Below, in pieces: positions 10,689 through 63,621 of a DNA stretch of 64,000 nucleotides. Source of the stretch: Escherichia phage vB_EcoM_ESCO8. The stretch lies in the sequence record OM386653.1; one strand, 5' to 3'. The position numbers were made by a program, and so were the translations under genes. The notes under the pieces were generated by a model that saw only the letters and a list, made by a program, of their open reading frames with translations, ran no database searches and was not told the origin of the DNA. Positions within the stretch are counted from its first letter, which is position 1. Each line of letters starts with the position of its first letter.

Positions 10689-11240
10689 TCAGGAAATATC
10701 AGATTGTGCTTTTAGATAAACAGCAAGGTCTGTATGCCATTTTCCTAAAAGATTTTGTCCTTTCCAACAGTCCTTATTTTCCACATCACGATCCCACATT
10801 CCCATTTTGATACCATAAATAGAATCATAAGGGCTTGCCTCTACGAACTCCTTATCTGCGTAAGCGATAAGTTTATTTTTGAGATCTTCATTTTGTGTGT
10901 ATTTAAGATACAAACCACGCTTGACAATCTTCTCCCGTAAAGAAGTCCAAGTAGCTTCATCGTAATCTTTAACTAATCTACCTAGTCGCTTATAATATGC
11001 CTGTTCTTTTTCTCCTGTATATCTTAGATCTCCGGTTAAAATAGAAGATGCAATGTTGTAATCATAAAACAAACATGCTTTTCTCCACATCATATATTGT
11101 TCCACACAAGTAAATTCAACAGAACTTGTAATAGAATTATTATACTTGGGAGCTAAAGGTTCAATAAAAGATGATAGATACCAGTTGCTAAATTCATCTT
11201 TTGCCGAGAAGAAGAACACATACTTATCAGTAATCCGCAT
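10689..11240 (-). CDS. NADAR-domain protein (YbiA-like)
   Basis: 183 aa; motifs FFFS..EFSNWY, VEQY..W.KA, and C-terminal GIKMGMW...G.N.LGK.H align with E. coli YbiA-type NADAR pattern. Confidence 0.65.
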   Translation of the reverse strand: MRITDKYVFFFSAKDEFSNWYLSSFIEPLAPKYNNSITSSVEFTCVEQYMMWRKACLFYDYNIASSILTGDLRYTGEKEQAYYKRLGRLVKDYDEATWTSLREKIVKRGLYLKYTQNEDLKNKLIAYADKEFVEASPYDSIYGIKMGMWDRDVENKDCWKGQNLLGKWHTDLAVYLKAQSDIS

Positions 11241-12413
11241 TTACATCTCCTTACTGTATACTAATTTGCCACCATATTGTGTAATAATTTTTTGAAGATT
11301 TTCCAAATCAGAAACACTTACTGTTTCTGTATAACCATCTTTCAACTCTCTTGCCGTTAAAATACCAGTTTTTAATTTTTTCTTTATAGCTCTTTCAGCA
11401 GCCCTACATTGTTTCACTGTGCTAAAATCATATAAACAAATACGCCCCATAAAAAACAGATTACGGCTCTTTTGACCGTTTAATCGTCTATCGCTATCTT
11501 TAGATATACCAAACTTAAGAGCAACTATAATATCATTATCTTTAACAATATTAATATATAATTGCTGTTGATTATGACCAGCACACTGTGGACAACCTTG
11601 ACCGAGGCTTAATAAATTACGAGCACTCCCTATCTGCTCACCATGCACAAGACAAAGATATTTAAACTTACCTATAGAAGAGGGTTTGGTAATCCAATCT
11701 ACCCAGACATACCCTTTCCCTTCTACTTCCTTTTTTACCCTATAGGTGATCTGGTCTTCTGTATACTGATAGTTCCCACAACGACACGGAATATACCCTT
11801 GTTTAAGGTTATGTCCTGCAGAGTAAAATTTACCATCACAAACACCTGCTTGAACATATTCATCATGGGAGCAAACAGGACACTCAACCATCCATACTGC
11901 ATCACGCTTGTTACGTTTCCCTGTATTGGTGAAGATAGTGCCTTCCTTAAATTCCCCTGTAGAAAAGAAATCTGCAATATGTTGATCGTCGGACATTGTT
12001 TGTCTCTCCCTCTTACATTGTGGACAACCGCTACCACGTTTAAAATTGTTAATACTTGTAGTATCCCATTTATTACCACAATGACACAACAAATCAAGTT
12101 TTGTTTTATTCCCTTTCCATTCTCCCACGTACCCTAACACCTGATACCCCCTCTTCTGTGCTATCTCTTCCAAGATCGGCAATTCTGTTTCCCATGTTAA
12201 CGGCTTCTTACCAGAACAGATAGGACAACCACGTCCCTTCTTAAAATCATTAATGTTCGTGGTGTTCCACTCTCCATGTTTAGGACAAGATAGCTTAAGT
12301 TTAGTCTTGTTCCCTTTCCATTCACCAACATAACCCAGGATTTGAATATTGCGATTTTTAGCAAGGGGTGTTAATTCTTCTTTATATTGTTCCCATGATT
12401 TTGGTGCTGTCAT
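11241..12413 (-). CDS. T5orf172 (GIY-YIG-like) domain protein with tandem zinc-ribbon modules
   Basis: 390 aa; three repeats of GYVGEWKGNKTKL..C..HG.W.TT.IN.FK.G.GCP.C followed by C-terminal LYINIV..GIS...RRL segment typical of T5orf172. Confidence 0.55.
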   Translation of the reverse strand: MTAPKSWEQYKEELTPLAKNRNIQILGYVGEWKGNKTKLKLSCPKHGEWNTTNINDFKKGRGCPICSGKKPLTWETELPILEEIAQKRGYQVLGYVGEWKGNKTKLDLLCHCGNKWDTTSINNFKRGSGCPQCKRERQTMSDDQHIADFFSTGEFKEGTIFTNTGKRNKRDAVWMVECPVCSHDEYVQAGVCDGKFYSAGHNLKQGYIPCRCGNYQYTEDQITYRVKKEVEGKGYVWVDWITKPSSIGKFKYLCLVHGEQIGSARNLLSLGQGCPQCAGHNQQQLYINIVKDNDIIVALKFGISKDSDRRLNGQKSRNLFFMGRICLYDFSTVKQCRAAERAIKKKLKTGILTARELKDGYTETVSVSDLENLQKIITQYGGKLVYSKEM

Positions 12414-12450
12414 CTATTACTCCTCTTATTAAATCTGGCATCAATACAAG

Positions 12451-12476
12451 AAAACCCGCCGGAGCGGGTTTTTATT
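12451..12476 (-). terminator. Rho-independent terminator (bidirectional)
   Basis: AAAACCCGC-cgga-GCGGGTTTT stem-loop with flanking T/A runs, 3' of ATPase gene. Confidence 0.65.
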
Positions 12477-12487
12477 TGCTGGCTTAC

Positions 12488-13615
12488 TTAAAACACGCTT
12501 GCCAAAGTTGCACCATTGGTGATAGTTGGTTCCAGAACAATACGGAAAGAATCTTCTGGATCATCACTAAACACAACGATTTTACCGCCTGTAATAAGAT
12601 CTGCTTTCATTTTTGTCGCATTCAATGGAATTCGAGCATCTCCTTCATCATCAAAAACCACGTAAGAGCTATTAGCAAGGGCTTCTTTAGAGTCTGCATC
12701 ACTTGGAGATGACAAGTACACGTCTAGTGTGCACGAGCCACCTAAAAAGATTGCAGGTGTGAAGTTATGCCAACTAGATACCCAGCTAACTTTCTGAAGT
12801 TTCCCATTAATAACAACGCTGCTGATATCCCACTTATTACCACCACCCAAAGAAACGCCCATCATAGAGATGCATTCTTTAAAGGATAAATCAGGGTAGA
12901 AATTAAGTTCTTCTACTATACCTTGGATCACATCAAAGGACAACTCTAAACTTACATCCCAAAGCCTTTGGAAATTATCAAAGTGTGCTTTGTTATCCAG
13001 GTTTTTATCTAAATAGTCAATCATAGTTTCTAGTGAGATTTTATCATAATTAAAATTATAAAACACACGACTAGGACGATTTAGAAAGAATTCAGAGATA
13101 AAGCCACTGTTTTTAGTTAGAATAAACAGTTTATTACCACTGCCAGTACCATCTAACAAAGTGAGAAGTGCTTCTTGATCTTGTTTCTTCTCATACACTT
13201 TATCAAACTCGTCAAAAATAATCACTGCTTTGTCGGTGATCTTGCTAATAAGTTCAATGAAATTAGCATCGCTGTAGGCTTGAGTAACCATAATAGTTGG
13301 AATACCTTCTTCTACAAGGTCACGACTAATGAGTTTGGCTAACATAGTTTTACCACTACCCTTAGTTCCTGTCAGAAGCAATCCTGTATTTTTACCTTGT
13401 GCACTCCGGCGATGGAATGTACGGATAACGTGATTTGCTCGTTTTTCTGTTTCACCATACAGAACATCCGGTACACCTGTCAGATTACCACGGCTTAAAA
13501 AATAATTGCCAAGGGGATCACGACTAACAGTATAGAATCCAGGTGGAAGATAGTTAGATTCCACGCCCATATCTTTATTTACACTTACAATATCACCATA
13601 AATCGTGTATTTCAT
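12488..13615 (-). CDS. AAA-type ATPase (paralog A)
   Basis: 375 aa; Walker A GTKGSGKT, Walker B IIFDEFDK; paralogous to 28181..29341. Confidence 0.7.
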   Translation of the reverse strand: MKYTIYGDIVSVNKDMGVESNYLPPGFYTVSRDPLGNYFLSRGNLTGVPDVLYGETEKRANHVIRTFHRRSAQGKNTGLLLTGTKGSGKTMLAKLISRDLVEEGIPTIMVTQAYSDANFIELISKITDKAVIIFDEFDKVYEKKQDQEALLTLLDGTGSGNKLFILTKNSGFISEFFLNRPSRVFYNFNYDKISLETMIDYLDKNLDNKAHFDNFQRLWDVSLELSFDVIQGIVEELNFYPDLSFKECISMMGVSLGGGNKWDISSVVINGKLQKVSWVSSWHNFTPAIFLGGSCTLDVYLSSPSDADSKEALANSSYVVFDDEGDARIPLNATKMKADLITGGKIVVFSDDPEDSFRIVLEPTITNGATLASVF

Positions 13616-61501: not shown

Positions 61502-62131
61502 TTATTCTATTTGAGCTATCAGCATAGTCATTCGCCCTGTATCATCTCCTTCAGCCTCGGTGTAAAGAGAACCTAAACCACCTATACCATGAGGTGGAGT
61601 TGTGGCATAATAGGAAGTGAAACCAAAGGCTGCACCCGCTTTCGCACCTAAGCGATAACTACTTAGGATCGGGAAAACGTTAAGTAACTGTGCTACTGCC
61701 TGATCGGATTGTAGACACAAATTATAAAAGAATACGTCGAATGTTTTATTTAATCCAACGTATGTATTGATCGTTTCTTTTTCTGTTCCTGTAAAACGAG
61801 CGAACATATCAATGATATCATCTCGCGTACCAGAAGACGCAACACGATAAGCCCTGATTTTTAATATTGTACGATACTCTTCATCTGTAGCACCATTTCT
61901 TTCCATTCCCATCTCTTCACCAATAAGATCTAAATACTTACCAGTTGCAGTAGAGATTAAGCGGTGTTTGGCAAGATAGATCATTGCCTGATCTATCTTT
62001 TGTTTTTCGCTAGAAATGATATAGAGTAGTTTGACAATGTTCGGAGAAGATTTAAAATCTTCAATCAGTAGGTCTTTAACATCTTCATTGATACTATCCC
62101 ACGTTGTCACATGGTCAACACTCACTGCCAT
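61502..62131 (-). CDS. hypothetical baseplate/tail protein
   Basis: ORF track 209 aa; adjacent to baseplate J-like gene. Confidence 0.45.
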   Translation of the reverse strand: MAVSVDHVTTWDSINEDVKDLLIEDFKSSPNIVKLLYIISSEKQKIDQAMIYLAKHRLISTATGKYLDLIGEEMGMERNGATDEEYRTILKIRAYRVASSGTRDDIIDMFARFTGTEKETINTYVGLNKTFDVFFYNLCLQSDQAVAQLLNVFPILSSYRLGAKAGAAFGFTSYYATTPPHGIGGLGSLYTEAEGDDTGRMTMLIAQIE

Positions 62132-62133
62132 TT

Positions 62134-63621
62134 TTAGACTCCGTACTCGTAGGAAATATTATCAAGGTCAAAGGATGGTACAACATTGTACGCTGGAGTG
62201 ATATCTCCCTCATTATATTTACTGTCATCCTCAGTATTAAGTTTAACATAAACACGGAGAGAAGTCAAGCGTCCGAACGCAAGTGCAGAATAAATTACAC
62301 CTTTTATCTGATCGTTAGTTACTGTTGACCCTAGCTCAAAATAAGCCTGTAAGTTTGCAAGAGCAGAAACAATATTTTCCCTTTCTGTTGTACTTAGCAC
62401 ACTACCATTGCCAGTTTGATACACCAGTTTAAGTGAATATTCAGCATTGTCACCAGGAGAAAAACGAATTACTTCTTGACCGCCATCTTCTGTTACGATA
62501 GTAATTGCTGTTGTACCATAGGTTAAGGTGTTAATAGGCTTAGTATTATAAATAACCTGTGCAACTTCTTCTGCTGTACCACCATACACAATAGTCTGGA
62601 ATGTCATAGCTGGAGCATGTTCCTGATCATGTAATGTAGGGTTATCATAAATCTTAACCTTTGTCACACCATCTGTCAGTAGCAGAGCTTTAACAATAGC
62701 AGCACGAGTAGCAGCATTAGCTTCATCCATATTATCATTGAAACGAGAACGGAATTCTGCATCTGTTTCAACATCTGTACCTGGAGAGAATGGATAGAAG
62801 TTACCTGTATCTAAAAAGCCTGTAAACGTTGAAGAAATACCTGTGATACTTTCTGTACCTACTGGATTATAACCAACGTCTGAACACGTAACTGGAATTT
62901 CACTCCATTTTGTACCAATTGCAATAGATGCGTAAAATTTCACTGGTGTTACTAGACCTATTGGGTTAACATTATCTTCTGGATTATAACCCATATAAAC
63001 ATTACTAGCATCATTCCATACTAAAGCACGATCTGTTGTTGATACGTTAGCTTTAATGAAATTCGTGAGATCTAAAATAAAGTTTGTATTGCTAGGACTT
63101 AATGTTTTACTGTTAAGACCACCATCAATAGCACTTTGAATGTAGAAAGTAATAGAAGTTTCACCAGAAGCTGTTGCGTTTGCTTTAGAAATGGTGTATG
63201 CTCCAATCTTAGCATTCAACATTGTTGGTGCACTGATATAATATGTCAAATCGTTATCGGCATTAAAATAAACATCTGTGCTTAGTTCATAAGTCCAAGC
63301 TGCCTTATTGTTAGATTTAACATAAGCATAACCACTACCAGCAGAAGCAGCTTTACGATAAAAACCTCTTTTAGAGAAGATTTCATCAAGGTAAATACCT
63401 TCTGCACCATCTAAGGTTTGGGTATTGTAAACACCTTGCATACCTTCCCAAAGGGTGTAATCTGTATATGCAATAATACGAAACAGTTGACCAAAGACAG
63501 TATCTTCAGATGTAGCTGTATCTGCACCGAAAGTGTTTTTCAATGCTGTCATATAATTATTTAAAATATCATCAAACGTTGGAATTACAAAACCAGCATC
63601 TGTTAAACCATAATCTGCCAT
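62134..63621 (-). CDS. Baseplate J-like protein (tentative)
   Basis: 495 aa; size, position and N-terminal pattern consistent with baseplate J family; not motif-verified. Confidence 0.4.
   Translation of the reverse strand: MADYGLTDAGFVIPTFDDILNNYMTALKNTFGADTATSEDTVFGQLFRIIAYTDYTLWEGMQGVYNTQTLDGAEGIYLDEIFSKRGFYRKAASAGSGYAYVKSNNKAAWTYELSTDVYFNADNDLTYYISAPTMLNAKIGAYTISKANATASGETSITFYIQSAIDGGLNSKTLSPSNTNFILDLTNFIKANVSTTDRALVWNDASNVYMGYNPEDNVNPIGLVTPVKFYASIAIGTKWSEIPVTCSDVGYNPVGTESITGISSTFTGFLDTGNFYPFSPGTDVETDAEFRSRFNDNMDEANAATRAAIVKALLLTDGVTKVKIYDNPTLHDQEHAPAMTFQTIVYGGTAEEVAQVIYNTKPINTLTYGTTAITIVTEDGGQEVIRFSPGDNAEYSLKLVYQTGNGSVLSTTERENIVSALANLQAYFELGSTVTNDQIKGVIYSALAFGRLTSLRVYVKLNTEDDSKYNEGDITPAYNVVPSFDLDNISYEYGV

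What the first reader, a model, noticed from the sequence alone, without database searches (positions are those of the whole stretch)
11241..12413. T5orf172-type nuclease-like protein with three tandem zinc-ribbon repeats
Three ~45-aa repeats each carry a Cys/His cluster (for example CPKHGEW...GCPICSG and CHCGNKW...GCPQCKR), followed by a C-terminal region with T5orf172 (GIY-YIG-like) character. The architecture suggests a sequence-specific nuclease or homing endonuclease, or a DNA-binding regulator.
Basis: partly seen in the sequence, partly recalled or inferred. Interest (0 to 1): 0.5.

Follow-up and report, generated by a model that had tools for sequence, protein, structure and literature searches.

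The report
Zinc-finger-repeat homing-type nuclease gene in coliphage
This is an ordinary, already-described kind of phage gene: a probable site-specific DNA-cutting enzyme, with four small zinc-binding DNA-reading modules strung in front of a GIY-YIG-type (T5orf172) nuclease domain, sitting between two conserved genes of a phi92-like E. coli phage.

Summary
The ORF is real: 11241-12413, minus strand, 390 aa. The window is a phi92-like coliphage (Justusliebigvirus), 99.9% identical to phage outra.

- There are four Zn modules, not three. R1, R2 and R4 are clearly homologous; a divergent CxxC...CxC module (M3) lies between R2 and R4.
- The modules are about 65-80 aa, not about 45 aa.
- Pfam calls them CapR-homology or treble-clef domains, not zinc ribbons.

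The C-terminal 109 aa score just under Pfam's T5orf172 cut-off (18.4 vs 20 bits). Other evidence supports the assignment:
- Three homologs pass the cut-off.
- Invariant Tyr, Lys-x-Gly, Arg and Glu sit on the expected β1/β2/α1/α2 elements.
- E340 aligns with the catalytic E180 of ICP1 Odn.

This CapR-repeat + T5orf172 architecture was published as a putative homing endonuclease class (Netter 2021; Barth 2023). Orthologs such as phi92 gp222 are annotated "endonuclease".

Locally, the gene is fixed in all 55 related genomes and absent only in Klebsiella relatives. Its DNA-binding half is a recombination mosaic with 1-4 N-terminal repeats, while the nuclease half and flanks stay 92-100% identical. 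Nuclease and homing activity are untested.

The parts
11241..12413 (-). Complete CDS, 390 aa plus TAA stop. CapR-repeat/T5orf172 putative homing-type endonuclease, ortholog of phi92 gp222.
   Evidence: ORF list. 99.7% aa identity to phage outra. PHROG 681 'endonuclease', E 1e-86. phi92 gp222 is annotated 'endonuclease' at the syntenic position.
12204..12413 (-). Zn module R1 (aa 1-70): helix plus beta-hairpin, ligands C43, H46, C63, C66.
   Evidence: Pairwise R1/R2 z=29.7. Module HMM E 9e-32. pLDDT about 90. Pfam DUF723 match at 31-66.
12003..12203 (-). Zn module R2 (aa 71-137): ligands C110, C112 (CxC), C130, C133.
   Evidence: Best Pfam CapR stretch at 81-134, and DUF4379 'probable treble clef' at 101-135 with 28.2 bits, above the 24.5 cut-off. 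C130 and C133 are invariant and C110 is >=90% conserved in 63 homologs.
11766..12002 (-). Zn module M3 (aa 138-216): divergent CapR-type module with the CxxC...CxC motif (C178, C181, C210, C212).
   Evidence: All four Cys are >=90% conserved. In homologs the full-length Pfam CapR match (profile positions 2-67 of 67) falls on this module. The M3 profile weakly hits R1 and R2. The CxxC...CxC motif is the one described for CapR (PMC8096241).
11571..11765 (-). Zn module R4 (aa 217-281): ligands C254, H257, C274, C277.
   Evidence: z=7.8 against R1 and 5.0 against R2. C277 is invariant; C254, H257 and C274 are >=90% conserved.
11244..11570 (-). C-terminal T5orf172-like (GIY-YIG superfamily) nuclease domain (aa 282-390). 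Invariant residues: Y286, K300, G302, R310, Q314, E340, D359, G360, E363, T364.
12420..12425 (-). Ribosome-binding site GAGGAG, 6 nt upstream of the ATG.
   Evidence: Read directly from the sequence. An AGGAG RBS is annotated at the same place in phi92.
12451..12472 (-). Intrinsic-terminator-like hairpin ending the upstream AAA-ATPase gene. The nuclease gene begins 37 nt after it, so this is the insertion point.
   Evidence: Terminator scan. A hairpin is kept after the ATPase gene in genomes with and without the nuclease gene.

Best explanation
The ORF encodes a free-standing, homing-type, site-specific DNA endonuclease of the published CapR-repeat/T5orf172 class.

Four independently folded zinc modules (R1, R2, M3, R4; 'beads on a string') together read a long, asymmetric DNA site. 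The C-terminal T5orf172 domain is a GIY-YIG-superfamily fold with Tyr286 on β1, Lys300-x-Gly302 on β2, Arg310 on α1 and Glu340 on α2. It cuts DNA near the bound site.

In a mixed infection the break in a sensitive genome is repaired from the nuclease-carrying genome. This copies the gene and its flanks into the cut genome (homing or marker exclusion).

In this phage lineage the gene sits just after the terminator of an AAA-ATPase gene and directly abuts a NADAR gene. It has its own ribosome-binding site but no recognisable promoter, so it is probably expressed by terminator read-through.

Specificity appears to be re-set by recombination, which swaps or changes the number of the Zn modules while the nuclease module stays constant.

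Shown here: gene structure, domain homology and fold, conserved residues, synteny, fixation and the mosaic pattern. Inferred: zinc binding, DNA binding, cleavage, homing and the expression route.
For: - Pfam CapR homology domain matches four times, E 2.9e-43; DUF4379 and DUF723 Zn-finger families are above their cut-offs. PHROG 681 'endonuclease', E 1.3e-86.
- The C-terminal domain is supported by 45 of 63 homologs hitting T5orf172 and 27 hitting MUG113, and three homologs passing the cut-off.
- Invariant Y/KxG/R/E residues lie on β1/β2/α1/α2. E340 aligns with E180 of ICP1 Odn, whose E180A mutant loses cleavage (PMC8263062).
- The full-length model has pLDDT 89.8 but pTM 0.46, which fits rigid beads with flexible linkers.
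- The protein is homologous to ICP1 'putative homing endonuclease' genes (27.8% identity over 82% of the query). The same architecture is described in PMC8096241 and PMC10448857.
- Mobility signatures: the gene is absent downstream of the ATPase in three relatives (FKP3, phi1_175008, IMG/VR L007). A family member sits at a different locus and strand in FKP3. Phage genomes carry up to 5 matching places.
- The DNA-binding half is a mosaic. Nucleotide identity falls to 56-64% against phi92 and whole repeats are gained or lost, inside flanks of 92-100% identity. Synonymous divergence is saturated there and dN/dS is below 1. N-terminal repeat number ranges from 1 to 4 at the same locus.
Against: - No activity has been measured. 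Homing has not been shown experimentally for any CapR-T5orf172 gene (PMC10448857).
- This protein itself scores below Pfam's T5orf172 cut-off.
- The Odn alignment is weak (hhalign probability 12.5%, E 0.0023).
- Within the genus there is no empty site: 0 of 55 genomes have the two flanks adjacent. Active homing therefore cannot be seen.
- A fixed, intact gene under purifying selection is not what the classical invade-degenerate-lose cycle of homing endonuclease genes predicts.
- No target site could be identified.
Confidence: 0.55

Rival explanations
1. The biochemistry is the same (modular Zn-finger-guided T5orf172 nuclease), but the gene is domesticated. It is kept because it benefits the phage, for example by cutting satellites, competing phages or host DNA, as ICP1 Odn does. 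The swapped DNA-binding modules would then track changing targets in an arms race.
For: - The gene is fixed in 55 of 55 genomes with no empty site.
- Every module is under purifying selection (dN/dS 0.1-0.9).
- Catalytic residues are invariant down to about 25% identity.
- The DNA-binding half is hypervariable beside a constant nuclease half.
- The precedent is Odn (PMC8263062). Odn-like RepA_N-T5orf172 genes occur in phages of this same subfamily: Inny, Muut and Mt1B1_P17 (PMC10448857).
Against: - No target, satellite or competitor is identified.
- There is no PADLOC match.
- The DNA-binding modules are the generic CapR type found in putative homing genes, not a captured satellite domain such as RepA_N.
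- The location (intergenic, after a terminator, at a boundary of sequence exchange) is typical of free-standing homing genes.
Confidence: 0.28
2. The protein is a DNA-binding regulator. The Zn modules bind a promoter or operator, as PLE CapR does and as I-TevI does in autorepression, and the T5orf172 domain no longer cuts DNA.
For: - CapR itself is a repressor built from the same Zn module (PMC8096241).
- I-TevI doubles as a repressor.
- The gene lies immediately upstream of, and is translationally abutted to, the NADAR gene.
Against: - CapR lacks the nuclease domain, whereas here it is retained.
- Tyr, Arg and Glu are invariant across 63 homologs, and 1478 cluster representatives carry this C-terminal domain.
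- Selection on those residues is hard to explain without catalysis.
Confidence: 0.1
3. The C-terminal 'T5orf172' resemblance is a chance sub-threshold hit, and the protein is only a multi-Zn-finger protein of unknown role.
For: - The query scores 18.4 bits, below the cut-off of 20.
- A profile search against PDB sequences found nothing.
- Foldseek on the whole model gave no significant hit.
Against: - Homologs pass the cut-off, and 45 of 63 hit T5orf172.
- The conserved residues fall on the catalytic secondary-structure elements.
Confidence: 0.03

Closest known systems
ICP1 CapR-domain/T5orf172 putative homing endonucleases (gp165, gp174, gp121, gp53, gp130; Netter 2021, Barth 2023)
   Same: N-terminal repeated CapR-type Cys Zn modules followed by a C-terminal T5orf172 domain. 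Free-standing genes, with variable repeat number and domain shuffling. There is direct sequence similarity: 27.8% identity over 82% of the query to ICP1 ORF165.
   Different: Different phage lineage and host (E. coli Justusliebigvirus versus Vibrio Mohonavirus). There is one copy in this window rather than the 4-5 places per genome seen in ICP1. Here the gene is fixed at one locus. The core module order R-M3-R-CT, with 1-4 extra N-terminal R modules, is specific to this subfamily.
phi92 gp222 and RefSeq 'endonuclease' genes of Justusliebigvirus and Phapecoctavirus
   Same: Orthologs at the same position: AAA ATPase, then this gene, then NADAR. The nuclease domain is 93% identical to phi92's.
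   Different: Overall identity to phi92 gp222 is only 67%, because the M3/R4 region is a different allele. Other orthologs have 1, 3 or 4 N-terminal repeats.
PLE CapR (Vibrio cholerae phage satellite repressor)
   Same: The same Zn-finger DNA-binding module with a CxxC...CxC motif. The Pfam family PF21817 is named after it.
   Different: CapR has no nuclease domain and acts as a transcriptional repressor of the ICP1 capsid operon. The spacer between Cys pairs is 28 aa here, against the reported 24-26.
ICP1 Odn (gp88), the only biochemically tested T5orf172 nuclease
   Same: A C-terminal T5orf172 domain whose catalytic Glu (E180) aligns with E340. The YxI / KxG / R / E / ET motifs are shared.
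   Different: Odn uses a RepA_N DNA-binding domain captured from its satellite and functions as an anti-satellite weapon, not in homing.
I-TevI and other T4 GIY-YIG homing endonucleases
   Different: The domain order is reversed: the nuclease is N-terminal in I-TevI and C-terminal here. The DNA-binding modules are different. T5orf172 has Lys-x-Gly in place of the second Tyr-Ile-Gly motif.

Membership tests
CapR homology domain (Pfam PF21817) | Profile HMM match above the curated cut-off (24.2 bits) | tested here: met
   146.3 bits, E 2.9e-43, four stretches. All 63 aligned homologs also match.
CapR homology domain (Pfam PF21817) | Two conserved Cys pairs, CxxC ... CxC, about 24-26 aa apart (Netter 2021) | tested here: met
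   M3 has C178-x2-C181, then 28 aa, then C210-x-C212, all >=90% conserved. The spacer is 2 aa longer than reported. R1, R2 and R4 use the variant Cx2H or CxC ... Cx2C.
CapR homology domain (Pfam PF21817) | Zinc-dependent sequence-specific DNA binding | not testable with these tools
   Shown for PLE CapR only, by EMSA with Cys-to-Ser mutants (PMC8096241).
T5orf172 (Pfam PF10544; GIY-YIG clan) | Profile HMM match above the curated cut-off (20 bits) | tested here: not met
   The query itself scores 18.4 bits, E 0.0032, 1.6 bits short. Homologs P0058, P0022 and P0019 score 24.0, 22.4 and 20.9. 45 of 63 homologs hit at E<=0.1. The subfamily straddles the threshold, so membership is by homology to members and not by this sequence's own score.
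T5orf172 (Pfam PF10544; GIY-YIG clan) | GIY-YIG-like alpha/beta fold | tested here: met
T5orf172 (Pfam PF10544; GIY-YIG clan) | Catalytic Tyr (β1), Arg (α1) and Glu (α2) retained | tested here: met
   Y286, R310 and E340 are invariant in 63 homologs and lie on β1, α1 and α2 of the model. E340 aligns with Odn E180, though that alignment is weak (hhalign E 0.0023, probability 12.5%).
T5orf172 (Pfam PF10544; GIY-YIG clan) | Endonuclease activity | not testable with these tools
   Demonstrated only for Odn.
Free-standing homing endonuclease gene (functional class) | Presence/absence polymorphism at an otherwise syntenic site | tested here: inconclusive
   There is no empty site in 55 of 55 close genomes. 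The gene is absent downstream of the orthologous ATPase (74% aa identity) in FKP3, phi1_175008 and IMG/VR L007.
Free-standing homing endonuclease gene (functional class) | Intergenic insertion with own translation signals; family members at different loci or in multiple copies | tested here: met
   The gene starts 37 nt after the ATPase terminator and has a GAGGAG RBS. A homolog lies at another locus and strand in FKP3. There are 4-5 places per ICP1 genome.
Free-standing homing endonuclease gene (functional class) | Cleavage of the cognate gene-less allele and super-Mendelian inheritance | not testable with these tools
   This has not been shown for any CapR-T5orf172 gene, according to PMC10448857.

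The most novel reading that the evidence does not exclude
The gene may not be a selfish homing element. It could be a maintained, re-programmable 'natural zinc-finger nuclease': a constant T5orf172 cutter whose target is set by a cassette of exchangeable CapR modules. Phi92-like and phAPEC8-like phages would use it in conflicts with satellites or co-infecting phages. On this reading, the number and identity of modules (1-4 extra repeats, swapped M3/R4 alleles) encode target specificity in a readable modular code.
Probability: 0.2. Interest if true: 0.6.

Novelty: already known. Interest (0 to 1): 0.22.

Why it matters
As it stands, little is new. The result confirms a correct annotation ('endonuclease') and places the gene in a class described bioinformatically in 2021-2023.

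The modest value lies in the local population picture:
- a constant nuclease module,
- a DNA-binding half that is exchanged by recombination and varies in repeat number,
- complete fixation of the gene across 55 genomes.

This makes the locus a clean natural series for two untested questions: whether CapR modules read DNA in a modular way, and whether T5orf172 'homing' genes really home.

Tried and rejected
- NCBIfam: nothing near any cut-off.
- PADLOC: no match, so the gene is not a catalogued defence-system component.
- Profile of the C-terminal domain against PDB sequences: only chance hits (RF1, E about 8).
- Paralogs in the window: none by tblastn, by module HMMs or by phmmer with Odn. 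The best Odn 'hit' (61505-62158, minus strand) is a DUF2612 protein and is unrelated.
- The search for related loci with the ATPase protein returned only 4 loci, too few for a systematic presence/absence survey. A flank-junction megablast was used instead.
- Local positive selection as the cause of the hypervariable DNA-binding half was rejected. dN/dS is below 1 in every module and synonymous sites are saturated, so the divergent segments were imported by recombination.
- No sigma-70-like promoter lies between the terminator and the start codon.
- No target site could be predicted.

Full report
**1. What is there**

The window carries an ORF at 11241..12413 on the minus strand. It encodes 390 aa, starts with ATG and has a GAGGAG ribosome-binding site 6 nt upstream. 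The surrounding DNA is 99.9% identical to Escherichia phage outra and 92-99% identical to other phi92-like phages of the genus Justusliebigvirus, subfamily Stephanstirmvirinae. The protein is 99.7% identical to an outra 'hypothetical protein'. RefSeq orthologs, including phi92 gp222, are annotated 'endonuclease'.

The gene lies between two conserved genes. Upstream is an AAA-ATPase gene (12488..13615), which ends with a terminator-like hairpin at 12451-12472. Downstream is a NADAR (YbiA-like) gene (10689..11240).

**2. The repeats**

Four paired 'knuckle' motifs are present, against 0.087 expected from shuffles (0 of 5000 shuffles reach four).

- R1 (aa 1-70), R2 (71-137) and R4 (217-281) are demonstrably homologous. 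Local-alignment z-scores against shuffles are 29.7 (R1/R2), 7.8 (R1/R4) and 5.0 (R2/R4).
- Between R2 and R4 lies a fourth module, M3 (138-216), with C178-x2-C181 ... C210-x-C212. It is not detectably similar to the others pairwise. However, a profile of M3 picks up R1 (E 5e-6) and R2 (E 5e-3).
- Pfam's CapR homology domain matches four stretches (146.3 bits, E 2.9e-43).
- In homologs, the full-length CapR match falls on M3.
- DUF4379 ('probable treble clef zinc finger') and DUF723 also pass their cut-offs.

So there are four Zn modules of about 65-80 aa rather than three tandem 45-aa zinc ribbons. The putative ligands are invariant or at least 90% conserved across 63 homologs.

The AlphaFold2 model has mean pLDDT 89.8 but pTM 0.46. 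That combination points to well-defined beads with undefined relative orientation.

**3. The C-terminal domain**

On its own, the query scores 18.4 bits (E 0.0032) against Pfam T5orf172, 1.6 bits under the cut-off. Several lines of evidence support the assignment.

- 45 of 63 aligned homologs hit T5orf172 at E<=0.1, and 27 hit the sister family MUG113.
- Homologs P0058, P0022 and P0019 pass the cut-off with 24.0, 22.4 and 20.9 bits.
- A model of residues 272-390 (pLDDT 91.3, pTM 0.84) has the order β-β-α-β-α-α-β.
- The invariant residues are Y286, K300, G302, R310, Q314, E340, D359, G360, E363 and T364.
- In the model, Y286 lies on β1, K300-x-G302 on β2, R310 on α1 and E340 on α2. This is the GIY-YIG catalytic layout.

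A profile-to-sequence alignment with ICP1 Odn (gp88) places E340 opposite Odn E180. Odn is the only T5orf172 protein shown to cut DNA, and its E180A mutant is inactive (PMC8263062). That alignment is weak (E 0.0023, probability 12.5%) and is supporting evidence only.

The C-terminal domain family is large. It has 1478 50%-identity cluster representatives at E<=1e-3. In nearly all of the 150 listed hits the domain lies at the C-terminal end, behind N-terminal regions of variable length.

**4. What is already published**

Netter et al. 2021 (PMC8096241) found that the satellite repressor CapR shares its Cys-rich DNA-binding domain with a set of ICP1 proteins. Those proteins end in T5orf172 domains, and the authors proposed them to be homing endonucleases.

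Barth et al. 2023 (PMC10448857) surveyed 229 T5orf172 genes in phages.
- 87% carry CapR, DUF723 or a third related zinc-finger domain (printed in the paper as DUF4397 or DUF4379).
- These domains are often present in multiple 'beads on a string' copies.
- The authors documented repeat duplication, deletion and domain swapping, and location at boundaries of genetic exchange.
- They state that homing has not been verified experimentally.

Phage inny, 99.5% identical to this locus, is in their genome table. The architecture found here is therefore a known kind.

**5. Local population genetics**

*Fixation.* A junction query made of the NADAR 5' end plus the ATPase 3' end matched 55 phage records. 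In none were the two flanks adjacent. The gene is also present after the ATPase in the sister genus Phapecoctavirus: nieznany, Ro121c4YLVW and ZCKP1.

*Absence in more distant relatives.* The gene is missing at this site in three relatives whose ATPase is about 74% identical.
- Klebsiella phage FKP3 has a DNA methyltransferase there instead, and carries a homolog at another locus on the other strand.
- Klebsiella phage phi1_175008 lacks it.
- An IMG/VR contig (L007) lacks it.

*Insertion point.* All forms keep a terminator hairpin after the ATPase gene. Where present, the nuclease gene follows that hairpin.

*Mosaic structure.* Flanks and the nuclease domain are 92-100% identical between genomes. 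The DNA-binding half (about 11550-12413) falls to 56-64% identity against phi92 and shows whole-repeat indels. phi92 has a 100% identical ATPase and a 98% identical NADAR protein, but only a 67% identical nuclease protein, whose C-terminal domain is 93% identical.

*Selection.* dN/dS is below 1 in every module (0.1-0.9). Synonymous differences are saturated in the divergent segments. These segments were therefore imported by recombination from a divergent allele pool, not created by local positive selection.

*Module architecture.* Module profiles give a core order of R-M3-R-nuclease. The number of N-terminal R repeats in total is one in EmilieFrey (325 aa), two in this window and phi92, three in PaulScherrer and alia (465-477 aa), and four in P0022 (562 aa). 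One protein, P0028, is a head-to-tail fusion of two complete units.

**6. Mechanism and rivals**

The best-supported reading is a site-specific endonuclease of the homing type. The Zn modules read DNA, the tethered GIY-YIG-type domain cuts nearby, and recombinational repair spreads the gene and its flanks. Module exchange would re-target the enzyme.

Fixation, intactness and purifying selection fit equally well, or better, with a maintained and beneficial nuclease, for example an Odn-like anti-satellite or competitor-exclusion function. The tools used here cannot separate these two readings.

A pure regulator role, like CapR, is less likely because the catalytic residues are invariant. Dismissing the nuclease domain as a chance hit is contradicted by the fold and family evidence.

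No promoter-like site lies between the terminator and the start codon. Expression by read-through is an inference.

**7. Verdict**

The feature is an already-known kind of phage gene, and interest is low. The mosaic, repeat-number-variable DNA-binding half beside a constant nuclease module is a tidy natural series for experiments, but it matches what Barth et al. already described.

Noticed in passing
window 11238-11256 (minus strand): The nuclease gene's TAA stop is immediately followed by the ATG of the NADAR (YbiA-like) gene (TAAATG). The NADAR gene's AAGGAG ribosome-binding site lies inside the last codons of the nuclease gene. The 3' end of the putative mobile gene therefore supplies the translation signals of its neighbour. 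phi92's annotation places an RBS at the same spot.
   Followed up: partly
protein P0028 (669 aa, metagenomic): This is a head-to-tail fusion of two complete units (R-M3-R-nuclease twice) in one ORF. It suggests tandem insertion of one such gene next to another, followed by loss of the stop codon.
   Followed up: no
L010 (Klebsiella phage FKP3) 2613-3335 and 6536-7486: At the position where the E. coli phages carry the nuclease gene, FKP3 has a DNA methyltransferase. About 2 kb upstream of the ATPase gene, on the opposite strand among minus-strand genes, it has a 316-aa family member (two clear R-type modules plus an N-terminal CxxC...CxC segment, then the nuclease domain).
   Followed up: partly
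phage records MG065639, MG065645, MG065656, MG065689: Four records named 'Campylobacter phage' with host C. jejuni are about 146.4 kb and 97.8% identical to this E. coli Justusliebigvirus locus. The host label looks doubtful and may reflect contamination or mislabelling.
   Followed up: no
window 1-64000: ARAGORN finds no tRNA or tmRNA gene anywhere in the 64-kb window.
   Followed up: yes
window 61505-62158 (minus strand): A 218-aa ORF matches Pfam DUF2612 (27.4 bits, cut-off 23.5). It appeared only as a spurious weak hit to Odn and is unrelated to the finding.
   Followed up: yes
L001 (nieznany) and L009 (ZCKP1), nuclease gene of 486 aa: In Phapecoctavirus, two small genes lie between the nuclease gene and the NADAR ortholog. 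The nuclease domain is only 38-47% identical to this one, while the ATPase is 64% identical and NADAR 56-59%. The nuclease gene therefore evolves faster than both neighbours.
   Followed up: partly
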